From Legionellaceae bacterium (GTDB taxonomy: Bacteria > Pseudomonadota > Gammaproteobacteria > Legionellales > Legionellaceae): DNA of 44,030 bases. Of the stretch, positions 1-6,000 are shown one piece after another. The stretch is from the NCBI GenBank assembly GCA_030148065.1, contig JASBUC010000042.1, positions 1 through 44,030 of the forward strand. The letters are read 5' to 3'. The position numbers were made by a program. Every line of letters starts with the position of its first letter. Position 1 is the first letter of the stretch.

Positions 1-3000
1 CTGGCTTTATTAGCGATTGGTTTTGCTTGGGCACATAAAACGGGTGAATGGAAAGCTGAAAAAACACCTATTCGTCTTAAAACTATAAAAAAACAAAGAC
101 GACCACAGTACACTTTCTTTAAATATGGCTTAGATCACATCGGAGATAAATTTAACAAAGTATCTGTGAAAAAAGTTGCTTTTAAGCGTTTAGTTAACCT
201 TTTAATACCTAAATCAGAGCCTTGCTGGGGGATAACTTAGATGTTTTGTCGTGTACAGAGCTGAAAGTAATGGAACGGGAGCTTTTTAAGCTTTTGTTAA
301 GGTGATGTGGGCATAATCATGTGCCTAGTCCAACTACTACCGGAATATTTGCAATGTCTAGCAGAAAAGATGTAGCCATCGGTTATTTCTCGGCAGAGAA
401 CCTAACTATTGATGAAGCTCTGCAAATCTCGAATAAATTTACCCCACAAAATGAAGCGGCGTTAATTGAGGAATTAAAGGCGTTTAAGCCTACTTTTGTA
501 CACCGCTACACACCACCACAAGCAGGGGAGCCTGTAACTTACCTTACTCCGTCTTTCGATTGTGATACTAGGTTAACGCATAAGCAATCTGCTCTGGTTA
601 AAGTAATTATTAAAAACTATGTTGACAATCAATGGACTCACCCAACGTTAAGTAAAATACTCGCTCTACATGCAACAAATGAGTTTCTTATTGTTTTTGC
701 TAAAATGCTTAAAAAAGATGGGGGTGCTTACCCTCACATGGGAACGATTTTATCGCCACTGACTGAGAGAATTTTAAAAATAGAACTTAGTAATGAAAAT
801 GTTTTTCTTAAACAAATACAGTGGGCAAGAGGACTATTCTTTAGTGGCAACCAAGAGGTTAGACTCACCCATTTTATTACTGGGCAAGTTATTGGTAAAT
901 ACACAGAAGCAGAAACAGATGGGAGCTTAAACCAAGGTGAGTTTGGTCTAGCGCGTTTAATTTTTAAGATCCATTTAAAAGCAGAATCACTTAGAGCGCA
1001 AAGAGGAGATAAAGATCCTGCGTATAGTGCCGCCAATACTTTGTATAATGAATTATCTAAAGAATATTTAAGCTATTTATCACAAGAGGCTCCTAAGGGG
1101 GAGGCTTGTCAAAACTTTAAAAGCAGTGCAAACGGTTTGATTGAAACAGCTGAAAAAGAGTTAAGTAAGCATAGGGGTTGGAAGAACTTTCTTGCCAACA
1201 TTGGCTTACACATTGGCCTACTGGTAACAACTGGCGGACTTGGAAACATTGCCGCCCTTGGCGTTTCATATTACCAAGGAAATGAAAACCTTCTATTCTC
1301 ATTAACGAAGACAGATTCAAGTAAGAAGGGAGAGGCTCTCTCAAACTACATAAACCGTTTTGCTCCCTAGTTTTTGGTAATATAGTCGGTTGAAATTTAA
1401 TTGAGCAACTTTAACGGAAAGATTTTTGTGATGAGCAAAGCAAAAAAAGTGACGTTTAGCCAAAGCTAAATAAGCTTTTTTTAATGCAGCTCATCGTAAA
1501 AATCTGTATTGGTAAAGATGCTCAATTAAATTTCAACCGACTATAAATAAATCTTTAAGGTTACGCCAGCTAATAATGGGGATTTGGCCTAAGTGAGTTT
1601 CTAAGTCCCCTGCATAGACGATGTTTGGCTCTAAGTTTTGATCGGTTATAATCTTGGTTAGGCGAGTAAGGCCTTTGGTAAATTCATCGAGTATGGTCAT
1701 GCCGGATTTGATTTCGAAGGCTTTAAGAGTGTTTCCCGATTCGATGATTAAATCAACCTCTGTTCCTGAGTGTTCTCGCCAGAAATAATTGTTACCCGGT
1801 GATCCTTCTGCAAACTGATACTTCATTAGCTCAGTAATAACAAACCCTTCAAAAATAGCTCCGCGACTTGCATGAATTTTAAGATGTTCTGATGACTCTA
1901 TATTCAATAGTTTGCAAACAATCGCTGAGTCATAAAAATAAAGTTTAGGACGTTTAACGAGGCGCTTTTTATAGTTTTTATAGTAAGGCTTTAGCCGGTA
2001 GACGATGTAACTTGCTTCTAAAATACTTAACCAGTTCGTAATGGTTGTTTGGGATAAACCAAGGTTATTGGCAATGCTGCTCGCATTAAACTCTTGCCCG
2101 TGAAAGCCAGCACAAAACTTTAAAAACAATTGGAATTTTGACAGATCATTAACCGCTGTCAAACTTCGAACATCACGTTCAAGGTAGGTGCGAATGTAGG
2201 AGTCATACCATAGATTGACAGGCAGTTTTTCTTGATAAGGGCGAGGGTAGCTACCATTGTAAAGGTACTCCCAAAGGTTTGGTTCTTCATTAAGTGATTT
2301 ATTGGTGCAAAACTCTTGGTAGCTTAGAGGAAGTAATTCAAAAATAACGGCGCGGCCAGCAAGCGTTTGGCTAATTTTTTCAGCAAGTAAAAAGTTTTGA
2401 GAGCCAGATAAAACGATGCGAGCACTTTTATACTCATCAACAATTTCCTGAATGTAAGAGAAAATGTCCGGATAGTTTTGTGCTTCATCAATTATTAAGC
2501 CCTTTAGGTGACTTAAAAGAAACCCTCTAGGATCTGACTTTATTAGTAATAAATTATCAGGGCTTTCCAGTGTTACATAGTGAAAGTTTGGTAGTAAATA
2601 TTTTAAAAGTGTCGTCTTGCCACTTTGTCTAGGACCGGTTAAAACGGTTACCGGAAAGGCACTAATGCCTTTTTTTAATCGTTTTTCTATTGATCTAGCA
2701 AACATTTCATCTGAATTTAACTTTTAATATCAACATCATAGCACAAAACGTGTAAGTTTCCAATTTCAAGTTGGAAACTTACACGTTTTTACGAAGGCTA
2801 ACGAGTATTAGTTTACTTGATGGCTTACTTCTTGATTGATAACTTGCCCTTCCGTCGGCAATTTTCTTTGGGCAGTAAATAAGGTTAGGCCTCTTTGTGC
2901 TTCACTGAGTTGGCTAAAAATTTGGGTTACAGGTTGTACTTGGCCACCACCATTAGCAAACATGGCCGCTTGTGAGGATTGCGTCGCTTCAAGCAGATTT

Positions 3001-6000
3001 GCTTTAGTGATGGATTCAGTTACCGCTTCAATAATTTTCATATTAAAGTAGGCTGGTTGTTGCAAGAGCTCTGCTTCTTTTTGGCCAAGTTGAACTTTGG
3101 CCTCTGCGTCTAACTTTGCCGTGCCTAGTGATATTTCAGCAAGGCTTGCCGCATTTTCTGCCTCTTGTCTCTTAACGCTTTGCTCACCTTGTAGTTTGGC
3201 CAGCGCAAGGCTTGTGCGAGCTGCTTGGTTTTCTTCTTCTTTTTGGAGAATCTTTTTCTCTTGTGCAAGTCTTAACTGCTCAGTCTGATTTTGAATTTGC
3301 AGGGCATTTTGTTCAGCTCTGGAGCTTGAGAGGTGTTTGGACTGTTGTTGTAATTGTTCTCGCAGTGCAGGATCTAGAATTTCGCAGTCCTCAATGTTTA
3401 GGCGATTTAACTGAATGCCATATTCTGATAGATCGCTTTTAAGTTTTGCTTGCACCCGGTCTTTCCAAGAGCATTTTTCAGAAGCCTGCTCAAGGCTTCC
3501 TTCAACTTCGGTTCTGGCAGACAAAATGTCACTGCCGGTTGAGGTAATGTCACGCATTGCCGTCGCATTAATGGCAGCAATCATATCGGCGGTGACCACT
3601 CGCTCAATGTGTCGCACAATTTCTTCCTGGCTAGAGAGTGTTTCCAAAGCTTTTTCTGGGTTCGTGATTTGATAGGTCACCACAAAGCGTACGCCAACGT
3701 AGTTGCCATCGGCGGTTAGAAACTTATCAAACTTTGCTTCATTTCGATCCATCTTATATTTGCTAACTCGTTCATTTTCAGTTTGCAGAGAAGGAAACAC
3801 GAGCGTTTGCAAGCGAGTGTCTAAAAAGCCGCCAAAGCGCGCGGTTGGACTAGAAATAATGAATGCTCTATGACCTTTGCTCGACTCATCCTGTCTCCTT
3901 TCTTCTTGGCTGTCATCCTCTTGCTTGCTCTTAAGCGTGACCAGTTTTCCGCCATCATTTAGATAAGGGACTTCGCCTTGATCGGGTAAGATGTAATGAA
4001 GACCATTGAATTCTAGGCGCTTACTTGCTTGTGGAAAGGTGTAGCGACCGTCTTGATTCATGATTGAAAAGTTTGCTGATTGAAACAAATAAGGTTCATG
4101 ACGGCCTTGCAGCACACGTGTTTCATTATCAACGCTAACTAAGGCAATGTTACCGGGTGCGACCATGACGTGGTGTAAGTCATAGTGCTTTTGGTAAGGC
4201 GTTGATGCAGAAATCAAGTTTCCTCGCTCAAACTCAAAGTTTGGGTTATCAATGATGTAGCGCCCACTTGGTAAAATCTTAGGCTGGTTGTTTTCAGTGA
4301 CTAGGGCAACGCTTCCCCTTGGTACGTTTAAGAAGTGAAGGTTTCCATGGCCTTGATACACATCGGTTTGACGAACAATGCCAGTGCTTTCATTGAAGCT
4401 TAAATTTGCATCTTCTATAAAATGGCGACCGCTGTCTAACACTCTATAGTCTCGACCACTTTGTACGAGCGCCATGGTGCCCGGCCTTAAATTAAAATAA
4501 TGGAGATTGCCGTTTCGAACGTACGGTTCTTGGCAACTGGCAAAGTCAGAGGCAGGGTTAAAGCTCAATCTTGGTTCGCGAATTTCATGACGACCCTCGG
4601 CTAAGAACTGAAAATCATTGCCAATTCTAATTTTGGCGAGCATTCCTTTGGGGACGTTAAAGACGTGCACATCGCCTTTGTTGATGTAGGGGGAGGTTTT
4701 AGCAACACTAAAACTGTCAAGGTTCGCAGGTTCGACAAAGTTTGGCTCATGGATGACATGGTAGCCCTCGTCATAAAGTCTTGCTTCATTTCCTATCATC
4801 ACTTTTGCATATTGACCTCTCGGCACATTTAGTAAGTAATGACCAAATTTTCCGGTCAAGGTATTGGTTTTCTTATAAACGCCAAGTTCTTCACAGGTGT
4901 CGGTTGGGTTAAAGGTCCACTTAAGACGTTGCCTTTCTACGCTGTCAATGCTTAACCATGGAAGGTTATTTTTATGAGCTAAGCGCACTTCGTCAGGTTT
5001 AATTCGTTTAAAAGGTGTTCCAAAGAGTGAAAAGATCCAGCTAAACATTTGCGAGGCTTTTGTGAAAATGCTAACTCTTTGAGCTGTTCTGTCTGCTCCG
5101 AGTTGGTTGAAGTCGTTTTCGATGGCCTTAAAGTCAGGGGTCGCTAGATCATAAGGGCTTTTTATGATGATGGGGGAGGGCGGCGCTTTTTGCATGGCGG
5201 CTTGCTGTGGTATTGGGCCGTGCACTGGCAGCACTGGAGACTCTAAGTTTGGGGCGGTGACGATGCTTGAAAAGTCATCACTCTTAACACTTAACTGATA
5301 AACTTTCTCTTTTAGTTGATTTTCTTGCTCTATAAGCGCTTGTACGGTTAGTGGCATCGGGTGTCCCTCATTGGTTTAGTTGTAGAAAGGCAGAACGATA
5401 AAGCTGAAAACTTAACTAAGCCTTAACGAACCAGAAATAACTTTACGATACTGAAATATATGAGCGAGGTCCTTCTATTTTGTATTGACGTGGTGGTGCG
5501 ATATAATTTGATGCGAGATGCGAGATGCGAGACGAGATAAACGATGATTAGACCAATTATAACCATGGGGCACCCGACGCTTCGAAAAAAAGCCAAAGCG
5601 ATAGAGGCTGACGAGTTCGGCAGTGACGCCTTGTTGGCTTTAAAACAAGATTTGATTGAGACCATGAATGATAGTTCTGGCATTGGCATTGCCGCGCCTC
5701 AAATTGATGTATCAAAGCAAATTTGCATCGTCAACCTTAACGAAGACAACCCTCGTTATGAGCTTGGAGAGGCAAAAAATACGCTTTATGTCGTGATTAA
5801 CCCCAGGATTAAAATTTTAGATAAGACGCCAACAGAGGGCTTATGGGAAGGCTGCTTGTCGGTACCAGGGCTACGCGGCTTTGTTAAGAGGCCAAGACGT
5901 ATACAAGTGACTTTTTATGATGAGATGGGCGAGCCGCATAAGCTTGTGCTAAAAGACATGCTTGCGGTGGTCTTTCAGCATGAAATTGACCACTTAAATG

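What the first reader, a model, noticed from the sequence alone, without database searches (positions are those of the whole stretch)
2808..5357. Vault-protein-like architecture: tandem ~40-aa beta repeats, then an SPFH/band-7 domain, then a long coiled coil
Four or more repeats of the form LHYFNLRPG..ALV.SGRDYRVLDSGRHFIEDANLSF precede a flotillin-like band-7 core and a Q/E/K-rich coiled coil of 200 aa or more. The order and total size (849 aa) mirror the eukaryotic major vault protein: MVP repeats, then an SPFH-like shoulder, then a cap-helix. The repeat pattern hYhhhL...G..Y...G.h resembles MVP repeats. In an amoeba-associated bacterium this could be a eukaryote-derived protein or a self-assembling shell protein. 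If the resemblance is only convergent, it is still an unusual repeat-plus-SPFH scaffold.
Basis: inference. Interest (0 to 1): 0.65.

Follow-up and report, generated by a model that had tools for sequence, protein, structure and literature searches.

The report
Bacterial vacuolin-like SPFH protein with vault-like repeats
A bacterium that lives inside amoebae encodes a relative of the amoebal membrane-scaffold protein vacuolin, with an enlarged stack of beta-repeats whose predicted shape resembles the wall of the eukaryotic vault particle, so it is probably a host-mimicking scaffold and not a true vault protein.

The parts
2808..5357 (-). Complete CDS, 849 aa plus stop: a vacuolin-family SPFH protein
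   Evidence: ORF list. Closest relative P0001 is 84% identical. BLASTP against Pelomyxa 'vacuolin A' gives E 1e-47.
5411..5427 (-). PmrA-type box: GTTAAG-N5-GTTAAG, a direct repeat with 11-bp period, 54 nt upstream of the ATG
   Evidence: Sequence read. With <=1 mismatch the motif occurs 3 times in the window against 0.36 expected, and 0 of 100 shuffles reach 3. The PmrA box is defined as two xTTAAk hexamers 5 bp apart in PMC3973317. TTAA-N7-TTAA is also present upstream of relatives in L005 and L008.
5395..5400 (-). -10-like hexamer TATCGT, 10 nt downstream of the box
   Evidence: Read from the sequence. This is inference: the consensus promoter scan did not call it.
5365..5369 (-). Ribosome-binding site GAGGG, 7 nt before the ATG
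   Evidence: Sequence.
5058..5357 (-). Residues 1-100: hydrophilic, low-confidence (probably disordered) N-terminal leader, with no Sec signal or TM helix
   Evidence: pLDDT 27-45 apart from one block. Hydropathy analysis.
5010..5057 (-). Residues 101-116: short aromatic-hydrophobic helix (SQMFSWIFSLFGTPF), conserved in close orthologues; a possible interfacial membrane-binding element
   Evidence: Alignment A1. Helix H101-111 in the model. The best 12-aa hydropathy window is only 1.19, too short for a TM helix.
4845..5009 (-). Residues 117-171: pre-repeat beta unit (KRIKPDEVRLAHKNNLPW...), conserved as far as Pelomyxa vacuolin A
   Evidence: Second BLASTP HSP, E 2e-20, query 116-309. Beta strands in the model. 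Not significantly similar to the repeats.
4002..4844 (-). Residues 172-452: five tandem ~55-aa beta repeats (family consensus IHilRVP.GkyAKvw.gn.P.LL..G.hVindpnFkfdp...fVdqn..YI.HGN)
   Evidence: pLDDT 85-95. Foldseek top hits are MVP R1-R7. No Pfam family matches.
3306..4001 (-). Residues 453-684: SPFH/Band_7 domain. The N-terminal strands are 453-474 and 499-521, split by a disordered acidic insert at 478-495. The Pfam match covers 517-684.
   Evidence: Pfam Band_7 E 7.9e-11. HflK similarity. Foldseek hits to HflK/C, stomatin, erlin, prohibitin and flotillin at E 1e-8 to 1e-5.
2961..3371 (-). Residues 663-799: long A/Q/L/E-rich helix (H663-764 plus H768-799), the presumed oligomerisation coiled coil
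   Evidence: DSSP on the model. Composition. Aligns to the Pelomyxa vacuolin coiled coil up to residue 785.
2811..2960 (-). Residues 800-849: polar, disordered C-terminal tail, the place where a Dot/Icm signal would lie
   Evidence: pLDDT 25-34. The tiny/polar fraction of the last 14 residues is 0.71, which is not diagnostic.

Best explanation
The gene encodes a bacterial member of the vacuolin family. Vacuolins are the flotillin-like SPFH scaffold proteins that coat late endosomes and phagosomes in amoebae.

Shown: co-linear homology to proteins annotated as vacuolin A. Also shown is the shared layout: a hydrophilic leader, a pre-repeat unit, ~55-aa beta repeats, a central SPFH domain and a C-terminal coiled coil. 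This protein carries five repeats, compared with one to three detected in the eukaryotic members examined (five in one protist member).

Inferred: like other SPFH proteins and like vacuolins, it oligomerises through its C-terminal helices into a ring or dome. The stacked beta repeats would lengthen the wall below the SPFH tier, which would make the assembly a tall 'half-vault'.

Also inferred: it may be a PmrA-regulated substrate of the Dot/Icm system that assembles on the cytosolic face of the host vacuole. There it would copy or compete with host vacuolin microdomains that control phagosome maturation and membrane recycling. The grounds are these. The host genome carries a Dot/Icm type IVB secretion system and eukaryote-like proteins. 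The gene stands alone behind a PmrA-type box. The protein lacks a Sec signal, a TM anchor, and an NfeD or FtsH partner.
For: Homology. BLASTP against Pelomyxa schiedti 'vacuolin A' (P0090, KAH3762885.1) gives E 1e-47, 30% identity over 479 aa across repeats, SPFH and coiled coil. A second HSP at E 2e-20 covers the pre-repeat unit. The repeat-region profile, which excludes the SPFH core, finds 487 clusters at E<=1e-3 and 131 at E<=1e-30. 30 of 40 diverse members carry Band_7, and 1-8 repeats are detected per protein, mostly 2-5.

Literature. In vacuolins the PHB/SPFH domain is central, the C-terminal coiled coil mediates oligomerisation, and the proteins mark phagosomal microdomains (10.1101/582049; PMC12757022).

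Host context. The window carries IcmQ, DotM/IcmP, a DotL/IcmO-like protein, IcmN/DotK and IcmL/DotI, plus a 1441-aa ankyrin-repeat protein. Relatives sit beside U-box and eukaryote-like kinase genes.

Regulation. The PmrA-type box is described, and similar boxes lie upstream of 2 of 5 other distinct loci. PmrA activates about 40 effector genes in L. pneumophila (PMC6989116).

Anatomy. Only 7 of 130 members have a TM-like N-terminal segment. No conserved neighbours appear across nine bacterial loci.

Cage inference. Foldseek matches HflK/C, stomatin, erlin, prohibitin and flotillin cages, and MVP.
Against: No translocation evidence exists. The C-terminal signal feature is mid-range among the window's proteins (0.71), and a PmrA box does not guarantee translocation (PMC9934583). 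The box is absent upstream of three relatives.

The name 'vacuolin A' on the Pelomyxa proteins is a submitter's annotation. I could not compare directly with Dictyostelium VacA/B/C.

Every bacterial-type context I inspected was bacterial, and most sampled family members appear to be bacterial. The family could therefore be bacterial in origin and act inside the bacterium.

Oligomerisation and wall geometry are inferred from relatives. No multimer model could be made, and the helix region has only pLDDT 53-70.
Confidence: 0.55

Rival explanations
1. It is an endogenous bacterial SPFH scaffold. The protein stays inside the bacterium and forms a flotillin- or HflK/C-like cage at the inner membrane or in the cytoplasm, and the eukaryotic vacuolins were acquired from such bacteria.
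For: All nine bacterial-type contexts inspected are bacterial, and bacterial members are very diverse (23-49% identity in the core). The only source-given name on bacterial members is 'HflC (stomatin/prohibitin superfamily)'. Close orthologues share a short aromatic helix that might bind membranes.
Against: Only 7 of 130 members have a TM or hairpin anchor. No locus has an NfeD or FtsH partner. The gene lies behind a PmrA-type box in a Dot/Icm genome among orphan and eukaryote-like genes. The distribution is patchy: one locus among 185,579 species genomes with the patterns used.
Confidence: 0.28
2. It is a true, very divergent homologue of the major vault protein that assembles into a free, closed, vault-like particle.
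For: Foldseek ranks MVP first for the full-length model (ranks 1-12, E down to 7e-13) and for the repeats alone (E 4.6e-5, prob 1.0). The repeat period (~55 aa), domain order and total size are similar. The protein is predicted soluble. The family SPFH domain aligns to the MVP shoulder in the correct register, but only at P~0.02.
Confidence: 0.12
3. It is a recent horizontal acquisition of a eukaryotic MVP gene from an amoebal host.
For: Only the architectural resemblance and the intracellular lifestyle of the host bacterium.
Against: There is no detectable sequence similarity to MVP. The SPFH domain scores as Band_7/HflK, not as MVP_shoulder. GC content around the gene (0.415-0.44) is typical of the window.
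Confidence: 0.02

Closest known systems
Vacuolins (Dictyostelium VacA/VacB/VacC; proteins annotated 'vacuolin A' in Pelomyxa schiedti), the flotillin-like SPFH proteins of amoebal endosomes and phagosomes
   Same: There is significant co-linear sequence homology (E 1e-47 and 2e-20). Both have a central SPFH/PHB domain preceded by the same pre-repeat unit and ~55-aa repeats, and followed by a coiled coil. Neither has an N-terminal TM anchor.
   Different: This protein is encoded by a bacterium with a Dot/Icm system. It has five repeats, against one to two detected in the Pelomyxa proteins. Its N-terminal leader and C-terminal tail are unrelated to theirs. No direct comparison with the experimentally studied Dictyostelium proteins was possible.
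Major vault protein (MVP; PDB 4V60, 3GF5, 9BW5)
   Same: Same domain order: tandem ~55-aa beta domains, then an SPFH-type alpha/beta domain, then a long helix. Similar length (849 against 861-893 aa). MVP is the best Foldseek match in the PDB for the whole model and for the repeats alone.
Flotillin, HflK/C, stomatin, prohibitin, erlin and QmcA membrane SPFH cages
   Same: Band_7 domain above the Pfam threshold. Foldseek E 1e-8 to 1e-5 for SPFH plus helix. A C-terminal helix of the kind that forms the dome in these complexes.
   Different: About 450 residues (leader plus beta repeats) precede the SPFH domain, where these proteins have a TM helix or hairpin. No NfeD or FtsH-type partner gene is present.
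Bacterial MVP-like proteins of Myxococcales, Cytophagales and Oscillatoriales (bioRxiv 10.1101/872010; Daly et al. 2013, PMC3762200)
   Same: These are bacterial proteins that combine MVP-type repeats with a Band_7-like domain and a coiled coil.
   Different: Those proteins are found by BLAST with eukaryotic MVP. The present family is not detectable with MVP or with Pfam Vault models, and it occurs in Legionellales-like Gammaproteobacteria. Any relationship between the two groups was not tested, because no sequences were available.

Membership tests
Major vault protein / vault | Matches to the Vault repeat profiles (Pfam PF01505, PF17794-6) | tested here: not met
   No hit at E<=10 for the protein or for single repeats. 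None of 40 relatives hits at E<=0.01. Vertebrate MVPs all carry these domains.
Major vault protein / vault | MVP_shoulder domain (PF11978) | tested here: not met
   The domain scores as Band_7 and HflK instead. hhalign aligns it to the MVP shoulder in the right register, but only at P~0.02 and probability 2.4%.
Major vault protein / vault | Repeat domains with the MVP R-domain fold | tested here: inconclusive
Major vault protein / vault | Nine repeats, cap-helix and cap-ring; a 39-mer half shell pairing through R1 (PMC13347060) | tested here: not met
   Five significant repeats, with 1-8 in relatives. A long helix is present. Assembly cannot be tested with these tools.
SPFH / Band_7 superfamily | Band_7 profile match above the gathering score | tested here: met
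   42.8 bits against a 23.6-bit cutoff, E 7.9e-11. 30 of 40 relatives also match.
SPFH / Band_7 superfamily | SPFH alpha/beta fold followed by a long helix | tested here: met
   Foldseek hits to HflK/C, stomatin, erlin, prohibitin, QmcA and flotillin at E 1e-8 to 5e-5.
Classical bacterial SPFH systems (HflK/C-FtsH, QmcA-YbbJ/NfeD) | N-terminal TM anchor and a partner gene (NfeD or FtsH) nearby | tested here: not met
   No TM-like segment in the query, and only 7 of 130 in the family. No such neighbours in the window or in nine bacterial loci.
Vacuolin family | Significant similarity to vacuolins beyond the SPFH core, in the same domain order | tested here: met
   BLASTP E 1e-47 (query 319-785) and E 2e-20 (query 116-309) against Pelomyxa 'vacuolin A'. 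Core identity is 33-35%. Caveat: the name is a submitter's annotation.
Vacuolin family | Direct homology to the experimentally characterised Dictyostelium VacA/B/C | not tested
   No Dictyostelium vacuolin sequence could be obtained with the tools. The layout (central PHB domain, C-terminal coiled coil) agrees with 10.1101/582049.
Dot/Icm (type IVB) effector | A Dot/Icm system encoded in the same genome | tested here: met
   IcmQ, DotM/IcmP and IcmL/DotI score above the NCBIfam cutoffs. IcmN/DotK and a DotL/IcmO-like coupling protein are recognisable.
Dot/Icm (type IVB) effector | An effector-type regulatory element (PmrA box) upstream | tested here: met
   GTTAAG-N5-GTTAAG at 5411-5427. The definition comes from PMC3973317. 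PmrA binding itself is untested.
Dot/Icm (type IVB) effector | C-terminal translocation signal | tested here: inconclusive
   The tail is disordered and polar. The tiny/polar fraction of 0.71 is mid-range for the window, and no E-block is present.
Dot/Icm (type IVB) effector | Dot/Icm-dependent translocation into host cells | not testable with these tools
   This needs a reporter-fusion assay.

The most novel reading that the evidence does not exclude
The ~55-aa beta repeats that precede the SPFH domain in the vacuolin family are true homologues of the MVP repeat domains. The vacuolin family, in eukaryotes and in Legionellales-like bacteria, would then be the missing intermediate between membrane-bound SPFH domes (flotillin, HflK/C) and the free vault. 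Bacterial members with 5-8 repeats would build tall half-vault cages, here possibly delivered onto the host vacuole by the Dot/Icm system.
Probability: 0.25. Interest if true: 0.8.

Novelty: new variant of a known kind. Interest (0 to 1): 0.62.

Why it matters
Vacuolins organise phagosomal and post-lysosomal membrane microdomains in amoebae, and Mycobacterium marinum exploits them there (abstracts; PMC12757022). A vacuolin-like protein in a Dot/Icm bacterium would be a new kind of eukaryote-like effector candidate, and it could be tested directly in Dictyostelium or Acanthamoeba.

Separately, the repeat module in front of the SPFH domain matches no Pfam family, and the vacuolin papers I read do not describe it. 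No paper in the searchable library mentions vacuolin together with MVP. If the Foldseek-level resemblance to MVP repeats reflects common descent, it offers a concrete route from membrane SPFH cages to the vault, whose origin is still unexplained.

Tried and rejected
1. A blastp self-comparison for repeats returned nothing. I replaced it with motif segmentation and HMM tests.
2. The family profiles A1 and A2 and the 140-repeat profile A4 were searched against PDB sequences. No MVP or SPFH hit appeared for the repeats; the only hit was Hsp104 at E 1.5.
3. hhalign of A1 against human MVP, of the deep repeat profile against a vertebrate MVP alignment, and against each of R1-R9 with shuffled controls gave no reliable signal. 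By eye, the family motif resembled MVP R1 and R2 ('IIRIPPYHY', 'VTVPPRHY') and the N-terminal strands of SPFH domains. I dropped this because the statistics did not support it.
4. Pfam on single repeats found nothing.
5. The MVP homologue search listed only vertebrates, so no diverse or bacterial MVP profile could be built.
6. The last large protein search, with the single-repeat alignment, failed because the word index gave only 22 candidates.
7. The afdb50 fold library was unavailable.
8. The genome-contig scan found one locus. It is pattern-limited, so absence elsewhere is weak evidence.
9. The idea of an N-terminal membrane anchor was rejected for the family as a whole (7 of 130).
10. The C-terminal signal score is uninformative.
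11. The consensus sigma-70 and terminator scan found nothing above the shuffle expectation near the gene.
12. Rfam found no RNA families in the window.
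Full report
OBSERVATION. The window contains an 849-aa ORF at 2808..5357 on the minus strand. Its start is supported by a conserved 'MP' N-terminus in orthologues and by a GAGGG ribosome-binding site 7 nt upstream. Pfam finds one domain, Band_7/SPFH, at residues 517-684 (E 7.9e-11, above the gathering score). It finds no Vault or MVP_shoulder model even at E<=10. NCBIfam and PDB sequence searches give only weak HflK similarity.

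The repeats are real, but their period is 54-59 aa, not ~40. Units begin at residues 172, 230, 285, 340 and 394, with 19-36% pairwise identity. HMMs built only from other repeat positions in other species detect each unit at E 3e-9 to 3e-19. The flanking beta units at 117-171 and 453-521 are not significant, and the second of them is the N-terminal strand pair of the SPFH domain. AlphaFold2 with a six-sequence alignment models the repeats as all-beta with pLDDT 85-95. It predicts a 137-aa A/Q/L/E-rich helix at 663-799. The first ~100 residues and the last ~50 are disordered.

HOW COMMON IS IT. The word-indexed search found only five relatives: one at 84% identity, three at 41-43%, and a partial one. 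A pattern scan of 185,579 species genomes found one locus, in a Gammaproteobacteria MAG. An exhaustive HMMER search with a profile of the repeat region alone (A2, without the SPFH core) found 487 clusters at E<=1e-3 and 131 at E<=1e-30. Within these proteins 1-8 repeats are detected, mostly 2-5. 30 of 40 diverse members have Band_7, and none has a Vault domain. The 55-aa family consensus from 351 repeat instances is IHilRVP.GkyAKvw.gn.P.LL..G.hVindpnFkfdp...fVdqn..YI.HGN. It matches no Pfam family.

THE VAULT HYPOTHESIS. For the full-length model the twelve best PDB matches are all MVP (E 7e-13 to 3e-9, ~800 co-linear columns), ahead of HflK/C, stomatin, erlin, prohibitin and flotillin (E 1e-8 and weaker). 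With the repeat region alone, ranks 1-12, 14 and 15 are again MVP. They are led by the murine R1-R7 crystal structure (E 4.6e-5, prob 1.0), and the best non-MVP hit has probability 0.13.

WHAT IT ACTUALLY BELONGS TO. Cluster look-ups showed that some family members are eukaryotic. Two are annotated 'vacuolin A [Pelomyxa schiedti]'. One comes from the chytrid Podochytrium, and one cluster comes from marine protist transcriptomes. One Pelomyxa gene lies on an intron-containing contig among typical eukaryotic genes.

The window protein aligns co-linearly with Pelomyxa vacuolin A at BLASTP E 1e-47 (30% identity over 479 aa, covering the last repeats, SPFH and coiled coil). A second HSP at E 2e-20 covers the pre-repeat unit and the first repeats. 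In the conserved core the Pelomyxa proteins are 33-35% identical to the window protein. That is as close as most bacterial relatives, and eukaryotic and bacterial members are intermixed.

Vacuolins are the flotillin-like SPFH proteins of Dictyostelium. They oligomerise through C-terminal coiled coils and mark microdomains on late endosomes and phagosomes. Their PHB/SPFH domain is central, not N-terminal, and the region in front of it is not described in the papers I read (10.1101/582049; PMC4031984; PMC12757022). The window protein is therefore a bacterial vacuolin-family member with an expanded repeat array. One caveat remains: 'vacuolin A' is a submitter's name, and I could not obtain Dictyostelium sequences for a direct test.

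CONTEXT AND REGULATION. The window encodes IcmQ, DotM/IcmP, a DotL/IcmO-like coupling protein, IcmN/DotK and two IcmL/DotI-like proteins at 34.1-40.7 kb. It also encodes a 1441-aa ankyrin-repeat protein and several orphan ORFs. This is the signature of a Legionellales-type intracellular bacterium.

The gene is monocistronic, flanked by a DUF4143 ATPase gene and a divergent peptide deformylase gene. Nine bacterial loci that carry relatives share no conserved neighbour and have no NfeD or FtsH partner. Two have U-box genes, one of them a faint match, and one has a eukaryote-like kinase. Only 7 of 130 family members have a TM-like N-terminal segment.

Fifty-four nt upstream of the ATG lies GTTAAG-N5-GTTAAG (5411-5427), followed 10 nt later by TATCGT. 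This matches the PmrA box definition of two xTTAAk hexamers 5 bp apart (PMC3973317). With at most one mismatch the motif occurs 3 times in the window against 0.36 expected, and 0 of 100 shuffles reach 3. A second copy lies in the correct orientation upstream of the orphan ORF at 321-1370. TTAA-N7-TTAA boxes also precede the relatives in L005 and L008, but not those in L002, L006 and L009. PmrA activates about 40 effector genes in L. pneumophila (PMC6989116), and its box is used to predict effectors (PMC2701608). Such a box does not guarantee translocation (PMC9934583). The C-terminal signal feature is uninformative.

MECHANISM. Shown: homology to vacuolin-named SPFH proteins, the domain anatomy, the host genome context and the presence of the box. 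Inferred from the behaviour of vacuolins and other SPFH proteins: oligomerisation through the C-terminal helix into a ring or dome, with the beta repeats stacked as a wall extension beneath the SPFH tier. Inferred from context: PmrA-controlled expression and Dot/Icm delivery to the host, where the protein would imitate or perturb vacuolin microdomains on the pathogen vacuole. I put about 0.9 on family membership, about 0.6 on cage-type oligomerisation and about 0.45 on translocation, which gives an overall confidence of 0.55.

RIVALS. The first rival is an endogenous bacterial scaffold, with the eukaryotic vacuolins acquired from bacteria (0.28). It is favoured by the bacterial majority and diversity, and disfavoured by the missing anchor and partner and by the effector-like context. 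The second is a true divergent MVP homologue that forms a free vault (0.12). It is favoured only by Foldseek. The third is recent transfer of a eukaryotic MVP gene (0.02), which is effectively excluded.

NOVELTY AND LIMITS. Searches of the paper library for 'vacuolin' with 'Legionella' and 'homolog', with 'SPFH', or with 'major vault protein' returned nothing that describes bacterial vacuolin homologues or MVP-like repeats in vacuolins. BLAST-detectable bacterial MVP-like proteins are known in Myxococcales, Cytophagales and Oscillatoriales (10.1101/872010), but that is a different group. The main limits are as follows. The structures are predictions from a shallow alignment. No per-domain superposition or multimer model was possible. 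Taxon labels are missing for most metagenomic members. The window's own organism is not identified beyond its Dot/Icm content.

Noticed in passing
window 34067-41810 (+): A Dot/Icm type IVB secretion gene cluster: IcmQ (34067-34645), DotM/IcmP (34691-35833), a DotL/IcmO-like coupling ATPase (35833-38172), IcmN/DotK (38232-38834), two adjacent IcmL/DotI-like genes (39121-39780 and 39834-40733), and an unassigned 355-aa ORF (40743-41810) in the position where IcmK/DotH is expected.
   Followed up: partly
window 285-301 (+), upstream of ORF 321-1370: A second PmrA-type box (TTTAAGCTTTTGTTAAG, one mismatch) lies directly upstream of a 349-aa orphan ORF with no Pfam hit. This ORF is a further effector candidate. 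Its true start is probably the ATG at about position 354, not the GTG at 321.
   Followed up: partly
window 14694-19019 (+): A 1441-aa protein with many ankyrin repeats (Ank_2 E 1.7e-66), a typical eukaryote-like effector class in Legionellales.
   Followed up: no
window 6073-8118 (-), 19007-20725 (-), 20745-22229 (-), 26033-26917 (-): Large orphan ORFs (681, 572, 494 and 294 aa) with no Pfam or NCBIfam match. They are possible lineage-specific effectors.
   Followed up: no
window 26914-29236 (-): Mevalonate-pathway genes: a degradative-type HMG-CoA reductase and a type 2 IPP isomerase. This pathway is unusual in Gammaproteobacteria but, from my own knowledge, is found in Legionella and Coxiella.
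   Followed up: no
window 8238-9074 (-); L013 9622-10470: The co-chaperone DjlA lies within ~3 kb of the vacuolin-like gene in the window and also in the unrelated metagenomic locus L013, where a faint U-box gene sits between them. This could be a remnant of synteny or a coincidence.
   Followed up: no
window 42446-42937 (-): A 163-aa ORF that ends in tandem ~10-aa repeats (FNSPSLKPAA FNSPALNPAA FNSQALKP...), with no family match.
   Followed up: no
L010 10001-15861 (Pelomyxa schiedti contig JAHLWZ010000267.1): The eukaryotic gene model P0095 ('vacuolin A', 1372 aa) combines Band_7 with carbonic anhydrase (Pro_CA) and Ada3 domains. It is probably a merged gene model and not a real fusion.
   Followed up: no
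P0066 (Podochytrium sp., KAJ3063080.1): The chytrid family member carries an N-terminal GH18 chitinase domain (E 3.6e-55) ahead of three repeats and the SPFH domain. The record is partial, so it is unclear whether the fusion is real.
   Followed up: no
L005 (645-kb contig ERZ25039592:contig_1880), around 8001-10361: The relative P0012 is surrounded by two U-box proteins, a eukaryote-like Ser/Thr kinase, a Mip-type FKBP and many orphan genes, which looks like an effector-rich island in another Legionellales-like genome.
   Followed up: no
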